Shown: piece by piece, positions 6,435-9,400 of the stretch | Layout: the number at the start of each line of letters is the position of its first letter | How positions within the stretch are numbered: position 1 is the first letter of the stretch | NCBI RefSeq assembly: GCF_057098645.1 | Contig: NZ_CM169472.1 | Direction: 5' to 3' (one strand) | Length of the DNA: 64,000 bases | Made by a program: the position numbers

Positions 6435-9400
6435 TCAGCACCAAACCATTTTTCGGAAAGGGCTTGCAAAGTGCCGTCTTTTTGCATTTCCGCAATTGCA
6501 TCATTCACTGCTTTCAGCAGGTCTTCATTTCCTTTACGCAGCGCCACGCCAGACTCCTGACGGGAGAATGCTTCACCGGTTACTGCCAGCGTATCGTTGG
6601 TTTTCTTCACCAGATCCAGCGCCGCCAGACGATCAACGAGGATCGCATCGATACGGCCTACGCGCAGATCCTGATATTTGGTCGGGTCATCATCATAGGT
6701 ACGCACATCGACACCCTGAACATTCTGCCGCAGCCACTCTTCATAGTTGGTGCCCAGACCGACACCCACTTTTTTGCCTTTCAGATCAGCAGCCGTTTTA
6801 ATGGTGCCTTCGTTACCTTTTTTCACCAGCGCCTGAATACCAGAAATGGTGTACGGGGTAGAGAAATCGTATTTTTTCTTGCGCTCATCAGAAATGGTGA
6901 CCTGGTTAATCACCACATCAATGCGTTTAGAGTCCAGCGACGCCAGCATACCGTCCCATTTGGTCGGTTTTAGTGACGCCTCAACGCCAAGATGTTTTGC
7001 CAGCTGTTGGGCAAATTCCACTTCAAAACCGGTTAATTTGCCGTCATCCCCCTGAAAACTGAACGGCGGATAAGTTCCTTCCAGCCCTACCAGTAGCGTG
7101 CCGCGCTCTTTGACTTTATTAAGCAGACCTTCATCTGCAAAACTTTTAACGCTCATGCCCGCAACCAGCGCCACGGCCATCACACCCATCAATGCCTGAC
7201 GTCCCAGATGTGCTAATTTCATATTCACCCCGAATGTTGTTATGTCTGTTTGCAGTGTAGAGCCATTGTTTGTAAACACAAAAACAACTCCGCTACATCT
7301 TATTCTTATTTAATATATATCAGAAGAAGGCAGGCTGGAGGATTTCTGCACAAGTCTGGTACAGGTTTGGCGCTGATAGTGTTGATACTTCCGTAACGCG
7401 ATGCGGTAATTGTTGGTGCTGGTGGTGGGCAGCCACGGGGCGAGGATTTCATCAAGGAAACCGTCCTGCAGCTGATCGAGGGAAATATTTTGCTCGTGTA
7501 GATGATTCCCCAAACGGCGCAAACGAACGACATATTCACGCACCGTACCTGGGCTCATTTCAGTTTGCTCAAAAAGAAATTGCTTAAAGCCGATAATATC
7601 GAAAAAATCACTCTGCGTTTTGCAATGTAAATCACCGCAAAATCGGCACAATGCCGCCCATGATTTTTGTTCCGTTTGCCAGCCATTTTCATCAAGCAGC
7701 GTGTCCAGGCGGGAAATCTCGATTTTATTCACTATTTTGCCGTCGCGAACTAAGGTAATGCGATCGAGTAATTTACGGCAATGCGCGCAATGGGTCTGGC
7801 TGTGTTTAAAGTCTTTAAGATAGCGGCTTAATGGCCGTCTTTTCAGGTGCTGCACCATCATTAAGAACTCCTGGTAGTCAAAGTTAAAGTGCGGCATTTA
7901 CTGACGTTATAACTTACCCAGTTTAGTGCGTAACCGTTTAATAGCCTGGCTGTGTAACTGACTGACCCGCGATTCCCCGACCTCCAGCACCGCGCCAATC
8001 TCTTTGAGATTCAGCTCTTCCTGGTAATAGAGGGTTAATACCAGTTTTTCGCGCTCCGGCAACGTTTCGATGGCTTCCATCACCCGCTGGCGCAGATTAC
8101 TGTCCAGTAGTTGTTGTAGCGGGTTTTCTCGCTGATGATCATCAGTAACCAGTTCGATGCTATCGCCGTGCTCTTCGCGCCACTCATCGTAGGAGAAGAG
8201 CTGGCTGTTATTGGTGTCGAGCAACATTTGGCGATAATCGGCAATATCGATCCCTAAACGTTCCGCTACCTCAGTTTCCGTGGCGTTGCGGCCAAGTTCC
8301 TGCTCCAGTTGCCCTATTGCCTGTGCCACTTCACGCGCGTTGCGTCGCACGCTGCGCGGCACCCAGTCACGGCTGCGAAGTTCATCCAGCATAGCGCCAC
8401 GGATACGCTGCACTGCGTAAGTTGTAAATGCCGTTCCTTGTAGGGCGTCATAGCGTTCGACGGCATTAAGTAACCCAATGCCGCCCGCCTGTAGCAGATC
8501 GTCAAGTTCCACGCTCGCGGGCAGTCGAACCTGCAGGCGCAATGCTTCGTGACGCACCAGCGGGACATAACGCTGCCACAGCGAGTGTTTATCCATTACA
8601 CCTTCAGCGGTATAGAGTGAATTCACGATAAACAGCCCTGCGTTATATGAGTTATCGGCATGATTATCCGTTTCTGCAGGGTTTTTAATCGGACGATTAG
8701 TGGGTGAAATGAGGGGTTATTTGGGGGTTACCAGTAAATTGCGAACAGAAAAAACCCCCGCCGGTGGCGGGGAAGCACGTTGCTGACAAATTGCGCTTTA
8801 TGTTGCCGGATGCGGCGTAAACGCCTTACCCGGCCTACAAAAATGTGCAAATTCAATAAATTGCAATTCACCTTGTAGGCCTGATAAGCGCAGCGCATCA
8901 GGCAATTTGGCGTTGCCGTCAGTCTCAGTTAATCAGGTTACGACGATTAACCCTGCAGCAGAGACAGAACCTGCTGCGGTACCTGGTTAGCTTTTGCCAG
9001 CACGGAGTTACCGGCCTGCTGGATGATCTGCGCTTTCGACATGTTGGACACTTCGGTCGCATAGTCGGCGTCCTGAATACGGGACTGCGCTTCAGACAGG
9101 TTAGTAGTGGTGTTGTTCAGGTTGGTGACTGCGGAATCCAGACGGTTTTGCACCGCACCGAGGGAAGAACGGAATTTGTCGATGGAGCTGATCGCTTCGT
9201 CCAGAGCTTTCAGGGGATCGGCGGTGGTTGCAGCTTTAGTTTCAGCGTCAGTAGTAAAATTACCATCCGCTGAAACATAGACTGCTTTACCTGAACCATT
9301 GGTCACAGTTCCGTCTTTTTGCAAAAACAGATTGGTTGTATTATCGGTAGTCAGTGAACCATCAGCTTTGGTGTAAGCATCTTCAAAACCTGTACCTGTG

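What the first reader, a model, noticed from the sequence alone, without database searches (positions are those of the whole stretch)
8779..8946. fliC 3' UTR with REP units and strong terminator; possible 3'UTR-derived sRNA
The 170 bp between the fliC stop and its terminator contain two REP-like palindromes followed by a canonical terminator. Sigma-28-dependent sRNAs processed from flagellar 3' UTRs (including one from fliC) have been reported in E. coli; this region has the expected structure.
Basis: partly seen in the sequence, partly recalled or inferred. Interest (0 to 1): 0.2.

Follow-up and report, generated by a model that had tools for sequence, protein, structure and literature searches.

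The report
FliX small RNA, fliC 3′ UTR
The stretch after the flagellin gene is this strain's copy of FliX, a small regulatory RNA already shown in E. coli K-12 to turn down flagella synthesis, so the finding is correct but not new; its body is one complete copy of a common bacterial repeat (BIME-1).

Summary
On the minus strand, fliC (H28-type allele) stops at 8949..8947. A 173-nt 3′ UTR follows, carrying two inverted REP palindromes (8903..8875 and 8838..8805) around a 36-nt AT-rich linker. It ends in a GC-rich terminator (stem 8773..8755, U6 8754..8749).

The region is 191/195 identical to fliX (b4827), annotated in MG1655 and characterised by Melamed et al. 2023 as a sigma-28-dependent, Hfq-bound sRNA processed from the fliC 3′ UTR. 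The published FliX 5′ end matches except its second base; the FliX-S 5′ end and the seed (M1 = GCA, 8783..8781) are unchanged. FliX ortholog = 8943..8749 (−).

Beyond the finding:
- **Repeat origin.** The FliX body (8928..~8776) is one complete BIME-1/RIP-type repeat. The seed TTTGTCAGCAA lies in the repeat's conserved terminal motif, which recurs at a median of 4 (up to 9) loci per E. coli genome.
- **Polymorphism.** Only 3,502 of 5,426 complete E. coli genomes carry the long UTR. The rest go from the fliC stop to the terminator in about 20 nt and lack the seed.

Verdict: already known; low interest as filed, with a modest new angle.

The parts
10757..10783 (-). Sigma-28-type promoter of fliC (TAAAGGTT-N11-GACGATAA). 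It drives the parent transcript from which FliX is cut.
   Evidence: 2 mismatches to TAAAGTTT-N11-GCCGATAA. The window has 2 such sites against 0.42 expected; the other is the fliD promoter.
8947..10680 (-). fliC coding sequence (flagellin, H28-type allele), the parent mRNA of FliX.
   Evidence: ORF; 99.4-99.8% identical to fliC of O145:H28 strains.
8749..8943 (-). Ortholog of full-length FliX sRNA (195 nt in K-12).
   Evidence: maps onto MG1655 fliX b4827 with 4 substitutions (window 8942, 8871, 8829, 8755); published 5'-end primer TTGTAACCTG..., which the window matches except at its second base (8942).
8749..8854 (-). Ortholog of FliX-S, the shorter and more active processed form (about 100 nt; 106 nt here).
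   Evidence: FliX-S cloning primer GAATTTGCACATTTTTGTAGGCCGG starts at window 8854; folds at -44.6 kcal/mol, z = -4.0.
8776..8928 (-). One complete BIME-1/RIP-type repeat unit (about 153 nt): left terminal motif, Z-type REP, L linker, Y-type REP, right terminal motif.
   Evidence: paralogs 3' of fdhE, cycA and livF align across the whole unit; in a consensus of 69 copies, conservation starts at CTGAGACTGA and drops after GCAATCTGA.
8904..8928 (-). Left terminal motif of the repeat (CTGAGACTGACGGCAACGCCAAATT). It is predicted to pair with the seed in full-length FliX.
   Evidence: consensus; 8916-8922 pairs with 8789-8783, P = 0.57-0.78.
8875..8903 (-). REP-1 (Z-type palindromic unit, GCCTGATGCGCTGCGCTTATCAGGCCTAC).
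   Evidence: Rfam naRNA4 partial hit.
8839..8874 (-). L linker of the BIME-1. It is AT-rich and holds an IHF-like site (ATTCAATAAATTG, 8851-8863 on +) and a cluster of RNase E-like RN|WUU motifs, one of them at the FliX-S 5' end.
   Evidence: IHF consensus with 1 mismatch; RN|WUU motifs at 8869-8840. Rfam ES036 model hit over 8841-8882. PMC3333891 for the definition of the L linker.
8805..8838 (-). REP-2 (Y-type palindromic unit, inverted relative to REP-1). It is retained in FliX-S.
   Evidence: naRNA4 partial hit, 39.9 bits.
8776..8790 (-). FliX seed region (UUUGUCAGCAACGUG). The M1 nucleotides GCA are 8783..8781. It lies in the right terminal motif of the repeat.
   Evidence: M1 primer changes GCA to CGT; unchanged in 10 of 11 E. 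coli sampled; the motif is shared by about 77 BIME copies.
8749..8773 (-). Rho-independent terminator (stem 8773..8755, loop ACC) plus U6 tail (8754..8749). It forms the 3' end of fliC mRNA and of FliX, and is the presumed Hfq-binding module.
   Evidence: retained in both long and short forms of the locus.

Best explanation
This is the fliX locus. Steps 1-3 below are inferred here by homology to K-12; they were shown experimentally only in K-12. (1) Sigma-28 RNA polymerase transcribes fliC from its class-3 promoter, and transcription stops at the hairpin-U6 terminator about 200 nt past the stop codon. (2) The 3' UTR is cut away from the mRNA to give FliX (8943..8749). A second cut in the AT-rich linker gives FliX-S (8854..8749). 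(3) The terminator hairpin and U-tail bind Hfq. The single-stranded stretch UUUGUCAGCAACGUG just upstream of the terminator pairs with sites inside coding regions (fliC itself, and rplC, rpsS and rpsQ of the S10 operon). This lowers their expression, so late in flagellar assembly the cell turns down flagellin, ribosomal-protein and flagellar gene expression. Shown here directly from sequence: the FliX body is one complete BIME-1/RIP-type repeat inserted between the fliC stop and its terminator, and the seed is the repeat's own right-hand terminal motif. My inference: in full-length FliX the seed is partly masked by pairing with the repeat's left terminal motif, and cutting in the linker removes that arm. 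That would explain why FliX-S is the more potent form.
For: Homology: 191/195 identity to MG1655 fliX b4827 at the same position, 3 nt after the fliC stop. The published FliX-S 5' end and the M1 seed nucleotides are present unchanged, and the FliX 5' end differs only at its second base. Experimental basis in K-12: sigma-28 dependence, processing, Hfq co-IP, repression of fliC, rplC, rpsS and rpsQ, and a reversed phenotype for the chromosomal seed mutant (PMC10578931). Sigma-28 promoter motif upstream of fliC. Terminator. Conservation: the seed is unchanged in 10 of 11 diverse E. coli and nearly so in E. albertii, while the adjacent 9 nt vary. Repeat origin: paralogs at fdhE and cycA share the flanks and the exact TTGTCAGCAA. 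87 loci hold the Y-REP-spacer-seed pattern, about 77 of them BIME-like, and the consensus unit has clear boundaries. Masking: seed-to-left-arm pairing has P = 0.57-0.78 in FliX and is absent in FliX-S. The paper reports stronger effects for FliX-S.
Against: There are no expression data for this strain. The four substitutions include one at the terminator/U-tract boundary: U6 here against U7 in K-12. U6 is the commonest form in the 11 genomes sampled. The seed-masking idea rests on predicted folds only, and the mean unpaired probability over the whole seed barely differs between forms (0.49 vs 0.52). The processing enzyme is not identified in the paper, so the RNase E motif match is suggestive only. 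My scan for the FliX pairing site in this fliC allele did no better than shuffled seeds. PGAP does not annotate fliX in any of the other genomes inspected, but that reflects the pipeline and is not evidence of absence.
Confidence: 0.88

Rival explanations
1. The region is only a passive BIME-1 plus terminator. At the RNA level the REP hairpins block 3' exonucleases and stabilise fliC mRNA. At the DNA level the linker binds IHF between the fliC and fliA transcription units. The short RNAs would then be decay intermediates with no regulatory role in this strain.
For: The element is a typical BIME-1: Y + Z REPs, L linker, IHF-like site (PMC3333891). BIME-1 elements are commonly present or absent among isolates (PMC1187871). 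About 35% of complete E. coli genomes lack this one and so do without it. The chromosomal fliX-M1 mutant in K-12 had mild phenotypes, with no motility change.
Against: In K-12 the RNA binds Hfq and forms thousands of RIL-seq chimeras with specific targets. Seed mutations with compensatory target mutations abolish and restore binding in vitro. The chromosomal seed mutant raises flagella number, FlgJ and fliC mRNA. The seed is conserved among long-form strains while neighbouring bases vary. The two roles are not mutually exclusive.
Confidence: 0.08
2. An independent small RNA of a catalogued Rfam family (ES036/CssrF on the + strand, or naRNA4) is encoded here, rather than a fliC-derived RNA.
For: ES036 hit on the + strand at 8841-8882, scoring exactly the gathering threshold (37.6 bits). 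naRNA4 partial hits of 39.9 and 20.7 bits.
Against: The ES036 match covers the BIME-1 linker plus the REP head, which is repeat sequence, and it does not appear in the whole-window gathering-threshold scan. The naRNA4 hits are far below its threshold of 59.5 and skip the middle of the model. No promoter-like site lies on the + strand within the UTR.
Confidence: 0.02
3. The 56-codon ORF at 8898..8728 (-) encodes a small protein.
For: The ORF exists, with an ATG start.
Against: It runs through REP sequence, the terminator hairpin and the U-tract, so it would extend beyond the transcript's 3' end. It is absent from short-form strains. The product is arginine-rich and low in complexity, as expected from translating REP DNA.
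Confidence: 0.01

Closest known systems
FliX sRNA of E. coli K-12 (fliX, b4827; Melamed et al. 2023, eLife 12:RP87151)
   Same: Same position (starts 3 nt after the fliC stop, same strand) and same length. 191/195 identical. Identical FliX-S 5' end, seed and M1 nucleotides. Same terminator. Sigma-28 promoter on the parent gene.
   Different: Four substitutions: the second nucleotide of FliX, the linker, a G-U for A-U in the REP-2 stem, and G for U at the stem/U-tract boundary (U6 rather than U7). The parent fliC is an H28 allele, not H48. Expression is untested here.
BIME-1 / RIP (RIB) repeats of enterobacteria: Y + Z1 palindromic units separated by the long L linker with an IHF site
   Same: A single pair of inverted REPs with heads facing a conserved long linker that holds an IHF-like site. 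The unit is about 150 nt, multi-copy, intergenic and present or absent among strains.
   Different: This copy is transcribed as a 3' UTR, and its right terminal motif serves as an sRNA seed. That use is not mentioned in the FliX paper or in any paper found in the searchable library. I could not confirm from the tools whether REP-1 is Z1 or Z2.
Other 3' UTR-derived, Hfq-dependent sRNAs (FlgO from flgL; UhpU from uhpT; MalH from malG)
   Same: They are released from the 3' end of an mRNA, share the mRNA's terminator as the Hfq-binding module, and have the seed just upstream of it.
   Different: The seed and most of the FliX body come from a dispersed repeat, not from locus-specific sequence.
Rfam naRNA4 (REP325-derived) and ES036/CssrF
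   Same: These are REP/BIME-derived sequence families, and parts of their models match here.
   Different: naRNA4 hits are sub-threshold and partial. ES036 is on the opposite strand and matches only the repeat linker. Neither describes the fliC-derived RNA.

Membership tests
FliX sRNA | Lies immediately 3' of the fliC stop codon on the fliC strand and ends at the fliC terminator | tested here: met
   Stop at 8949..8947, FliX ortholog at 8943..8749, terminator at 8773..8749.
FliX sRNA | Full-length sequence homology to K-12 fliX (b4827) | tested here: met
   191/195 identical with no indels.
FliX sRNA | Seed sequence, including the nucleotides changed in the loss-of-function mutant M1 (GCA) | tested here: met
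   UUUGUCAGCAACGUG is identical to K-12, with GCA at 8783..8781. Conserved in 10 of 11 E. coli sampled.
FliX sRNA | Sigma-28-dependent synthesis through the fliC promoter | tested here: inconclusive
   A sigma-28 consensus motif with 2 mismatches lies at 10783..10757. Dependence itself needs expression data.
FliX sRNA | Processed from fliC mRNA into ~200-nt and ~100-nt species that bind Hfq | not testable with these tools
   Shown only in K-12. The FliX-S 5'-end sequence is unchanged here and the FliX 5'-end sequence differs at one base.
FliX sRNA | Base-pairs with fliC, rplC, rpsS and rpsQ coding regions | tested here: inconclusive
   The S10 operon is not in the window. The duplex scan against this fliC allele did no better than shuffled seeds.
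BIME-1 / RIP repeat | One Y and one Z palindromic unit in inverted orientation, present as a single pair | tested here: met
   REP-1 at 8903..8875 and REP-2 at 8838..8805, heads facing the linker. Definition taken from PMC3333891. Z1 versus Z2 was not resolved.
BIME-1 / RIP repeat | Long, conserved L linker, frequently with an IHF site | tested here: met
   36-nt linker, conserved across 69 copies. ATTCAATAAATTG matches WATCAANNNNTTR with 1 mismatch. IHF binding itself was not tested.
BIME-1 / RIP repeat | Multi-copy and dispersed in intergenic regions, with presence/absence polymorphism among strains | tested here: met
   Paralogs at fdhE, cycA and livF. Right flank present at a median of 4 places per genome in 5,196 of 5,426 genomes. 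Long form of this locus in 3,502 of 5,426 genomes.
Rfam ES036 (CssrF) | Match at or above the gathering score on the transcribed strand | tested here: not met
   37.6 bits equals the threshold only in the small-region scan. The match is on the + strand, antisense to fliC, and is absent from the whole-window gathering scan.
Rfam naRNA4 | Match at or above the gathering score (59.5 bits) | tested here: not met
   Best hit is 39.9 bits and covers only one REP.

The most novel reading that the evidence does not exclude
FliX is an exapted BIME-1 repeat. A mobile ~150-nt palindromic element landed between the fliC stop codon and its terminator, and its conserved terminal motif (UUUGUCAGCAA) became the sRNA seed. 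Seed-bearing copies of the same element often sit in the same layout (gene stop, then BIME-1, then seed, then terminator). So they could form a repeat-born family of 3' UTR RNAs that share the FliX seed and act as co-regulators or as competitors/sponges. Because the element is absent from this locus in about a third of E. coli, FliX-mediated feedback on flagella and ribosomal proteins would be lineage-specific. The sequence facts are shown here: the seed lies inside the repeat, the element is multi-copy, and the locus is polymorphic. That other copies make functional RNAs, and that strains lacking FliX regulate flagella differently, is speculation.
Probability: 0.25. Interest if true: 0.6.

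Novelty: already known. Interest (0 to 1): 0.25.

Why it matters
As filed, the finding rediscovers a published, annotated sRNA. It shows that the first-stage reader can recognise a real 3' UTR sRNA from sequence alone, but it adds no new biology. Two side results may interest specialists. First, the seed of a characterised Hfq-dependent sRNA is supplied by a dispersed repeat (BIME-1). That gives a concrete route by which repeats inserted next to terminators could create new 3' UTR sRNAs, and it raises the question of whether sister copies share targets or confound RIL-seq read mapping. Second, FliX is not a core E. coli RNA, since roughly 35% of complete genomes lack it. This matters when K-12 flagellar regulation is extrapolated to pathogens. 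In addition, fliX was annotated in none of the 12 PGAP-annotated genomes inspected, so an Rfam model would be useful.

Tried and rejected
1. A fixed-spacing REP pattern with 3 mismatches found nothing because the loop lengths differ. A variable-gap pattern found exactly the two REPs.
2. Rfam has no FliX family. The only hits are repeat-derived (ES036, naRNA4) plus miRNA noise, and I rejected them as identities.
3. I scanned the fliC mRNA of this strain and of K-12 with RNA duplexfold for the FliX seed site. The best energies (-18.7 and -23.1 kcal/mol) were no better than shuffled seeds (mean -20, sd 2.5), so the scan is uninformative.
4. I considered whether U6 instead of U7 might weaken Hfq binding. 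U6 is the majority state among the sampled strains, so I dropped this.
5. I rejected the 56-aa ORF through the BIME as a translation artefact.
6. The terminator is not bidirectional: no T-run follows the hairpin on the + strand (by inspection).
7. The copies were selected by the seed motif, so its conservation there is circular. I partly corrected for this with extra, unselected copies in the same loci and with a consensus-flank search in E. coli. A full seed-independent census was not possible.
8. My first attempt to include contig L068 in alignment A4 used the wrong coordinates, so that row should be ignored.
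Full report
**Layout of the locus.** The region holds, all on the minus strand: the cystine-binding protein gene (tcyJ/fliY), fliZ, fliA (7907..8626), a 320-nt spacer (8627..8946) and fliC (8947..10680, 577 aa). fliD lies divergent from fliC on the plus strand. So the finding is the 3' UTR of fliC read on the minus strand. The fliC allele is H28-type, 99.4-99.8% identical to O145:H28 strains. The spacer is 100% identical to that of O145 strain RM9872.

**Observation check.**
- The fliC stop codon is at 8949..8947.
- A terminator-like hairpin (UCCCCGCC-ACC-GGCGGGGG, 8 pairs of which 7 are G-C) lies at 8773..8755, followed by U6 at 8754..8749. It folds at -15.2 kcal/mol.
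- A REP pattern matches twice in the 64 kb, both times here, against 0.02 expected.
- REP-1 (8903..8875) and REP-2 (8838..8805) each fold stably. They are inverted copies of each other flanking a 36-nt AT-rich linker.

**Identity.**
- RefSeq annotates an ncRNA in MG1655: fliX (b4827), 195 nt, starting 3 nt after the fliC stop.
- The window aligns to it without gaps, with four substitutions at 8942, 8871, 8829 and 8755.
- Melamed et al. 2023 (PMC10578931) describe FliX as one of four sigma-28-dependent, UTR-derived sRNAs. It is lost in a fliA deletion, is depleted by 5'-phosphate-dependent exonuclease (so it is processed), and co-precipitates with Hfq. It is seen as a ~200-nt band and a ~100-nt FliX-S band that 'includes one of the REP sequences'.
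- Overexpression lowers flagella number, flagellin, fliC mRNA and rplC/rpsS/rpsQ reporters. FliX-S is the stronger form. A chromosomal seed mutant has the opposite phenotype.
- The primer table in the paper's supplement fixes three landmarks: the FliX 5' end (TTGTAACCTG, window 8943, where the window differs only at the second base, 8942), the FliX-S 5' end (GAATTTGCACA, window 8854) and the M1 seed change (GCA to CGT in TTTGTCA[GCA]ACGTGC, window 8783..8781). The last two are intact here.
- A sigma-28-type promoter (TAAAGGTT-N11-GACGATAA) lies upstream of fliC at 10783..10757.
- Rfam 15 has no FliX model. Its only hits here are repeat-derived: ES036 on the opposite strand at exactly its threshold, and sub-threshold naRNA4.

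**What the element is made of.**
- A search with the UTR body found weaker matches at other chromosomal loci.
- Copies 3' of fdhE, cycA and livF align with FliX across both REPs and the linker. They also align across the sequences outside the REPs, and the fdhE and cycA copies carry the exact TTGTCAGCAA.
- A scan of one genome per species for 'Y-REP end, 13-17 nt, TTGTCAGCAA' returned 87 loci. About 77 are BIME-like. Counts per genome were 9 in E. albertii, 8 in E. whittamii, 4 to about 14 in other Escherichia lineages, and 7-19 in three Pseudocitrobacter genomes. There were also about 9 chance hits in unrelated taxa.
- The consensus of 69 copies is CTGAGACTGATGACAAACGCAAAATT / Z-REP / AAGGTTTCTGCAATATATTGAATTTGCACGATTTT / Y-REP / ATGAACAAAGCGCACTTTGTCAGCAATCTGA. 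Conservation falls away on both sides of it.
- Bases that the search pattern did not constrain (GAACAAAGCGCAC and TCTGA) are also conserved.
- The two ends are imperfect inverted repeats of each other.
- This fits the published definition of BIME-1: a single Y + Z pair with a long conserved L linker that often holds an IHF site, about 140 bp, present or absent among isolates (PMC3333891; PMC1187871). The linker here has ATTCAATAAATTG, one mismatch from the IHF consensus.
- So window 8928..~8776 is one complete BIME-1 unit, and the FliX seed is that unit's right terminal motif.
- The copies were selected by the motif. As a partial control, stand-alone copies found in the same loci without requiring the motif mostly keep it with at most one mismatch, while tandem arrays replace it with the next REP.
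- A 52-nt consensus of the right flank is found in 5,196 of 5,426 E. coli genomes, at a median of 4 and up to 9 places per genome.
- The FliX paper mentions neither BIME nor IHF. I found no paper in the searchable library that links the FliX seed to the repeat. That library is incomplete.

**Recurrence of the architecture.** Of 80 seed-bearing copies, 43 are followed within 25 nt by a hairpin plus T-run. Of 67 assessable copies, 51 lie just downstream of a same-strand ORF of at least 100 codons. Twenty-nine copies have both features (a crude ORF-based estimate). The layout 'stop codon, BIME-1, seed, terminator' is therefore common.

**Mechanistic inference.**
- In the predicted ensemble of full-length FliX, the seed core UUGUCAG (8789..8783) pairs with the left terminal motif (8916..8922) at P = 0.57-0.78. 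This closes the whole BIME into one long hairpin.
- FliX-S lacks that arm, and UUUGUC becomes mostly unpaired.
- The FliX-S 5' end lies in the apical, AT-rich loop of that hairpin, where RNase E-like RN|WUU motifs cluster. GA|AUU at 8854..8850 is one of them.
- This could explain the higher potency reported for FliX-S, but it is a prediction only. The mean accessibility of the whole seed barely changes (0.49 vs 0.52).

**Population picture.**
- Only 3,502 of 5,426 complete E. coli genomes hold at least 80% of the 320-nt spacer. Almost all the others match only from the terminator onward.
- In those genomes the fliC-fliA spacer is 164 nt: stop codon, about 20 unrelated nucleotides, then the terminator. 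They have no BIME and no seed.
- Two short junction types account for 863 and 225 genomes. The remainder carry other variants that I did not resolve.
- Long forms occur with many different flagellin alleles, including H48 (K-12), H28, H7 (O157:H7) and the Nissle allele. O111:H8 has a short form.
- The E. albertii type strain has the orthologous insertion, with seed CTTGTCAGCAACCTG. So the insertion is old, or it has moved by recombination.
- Among 11 E. coli long forms, the seed is unchanged in 10, while the 9 nt just upstream vary. The U-tract is 6-7 nt.

**Rivals.**
- A purely passive role (mRNA 3' stabiliser, or an IHF-binding DNA element) is compatible with the element's nature and with its absence from a third of strains. 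It does not account for the K-12 genetics and is not exclusive of the sRNA role.
- I rejected an independent plus-strand sRNA and the 56-codon ORF.

**Verdict.** The feature is the already-known FliX sRNA, so interest as filed is low. The repeat origin of the seed and the presence/absence polymorphism are modest new angles worth a specialist's attention.

Noticed in passing
window 8627-8946 compared with L002:2482-2645 and L003:2481-2643: The fliC-fliA spacer exists in a long form (320 nt, with the BIME-1 and FliX) in 3,502 of 5,426 complete E. coli genomes, and in short forms (164 nt, with no BIME and no FliX seed) in most of the rest. At least two short junction types exist, in 863 and 225 genomes.
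   Followed up: partly
L005:1470-1680 (3' of fdhE), L006:1455-1665 (3' of cycA), L007:1455-1660 (3' of livF): These are paralogous BIME-1 copies in other 3' intergenic regions. The fdhE and cycA copies carry the exact FliX seed core TTGTCAGCAA. The livF copy has a diverged flank.
   Followed up: partly
L083:~3120-4430, L086:~1100-1900 and L082 (Escherichia sp. MOD1-EC7003): Tandem arrays of 11, 7 and 4 BIME-1-like units with periods of about 114, 107 and 125 nt. This is unusual, because BIME-1 is described as single-copy per locus.
   Followed up: no
L008:~950-1190 (E. albertii NBRC 107761): The FliX-orthologous BIME-1 is present, but fliC has TAG in place of CAG 12 codons before the normal stop. 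The terminator is also partly deleted and has a poor U-tract.
   Followed up: no
L067, L073, L068: Short contigs with E. coli-type BIME sequence (the fdhE copy and a FliX variant) sit in assemblies labelled Alkalicoccobacillus porphyridii, Bacillus coahuilensis and a Collinsella MAG. This is probably contamination.
   Followed up: no
window 8841-8882 (+): The Rfam ES036/CssrF model matches the BIME-1 L linker plus the REP head at exactly its gathering score. The family appears to model a repeat rather than a single gene.
   Followed up: partly
window 32305-32391 (-) and 40727-40816 (+): Rfam gathering-level matches to DsrA (102.5 bits) and RseX (99 bits).
   Followed up: no
window 10876-10902 (+): A sigma-28-type promoter for fliD (TAAACTTT-N11-GCCGATAA, 1 mismatch), divergent from the fliC promoter.
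   Followed up: no
window 8728-8898 (-): A 56-codon ATG ORF runs through REP-1, the linker, REP-2 and the terminator. It is almost certainly spurious.
   Followed up: partly
L002-L004 and L096-L104 (12 PGAP-annotated genomes): None of the PGAP-annotated genomes inspected annotates fliX. Only the curated MG1655 record does.
   Followed up: no
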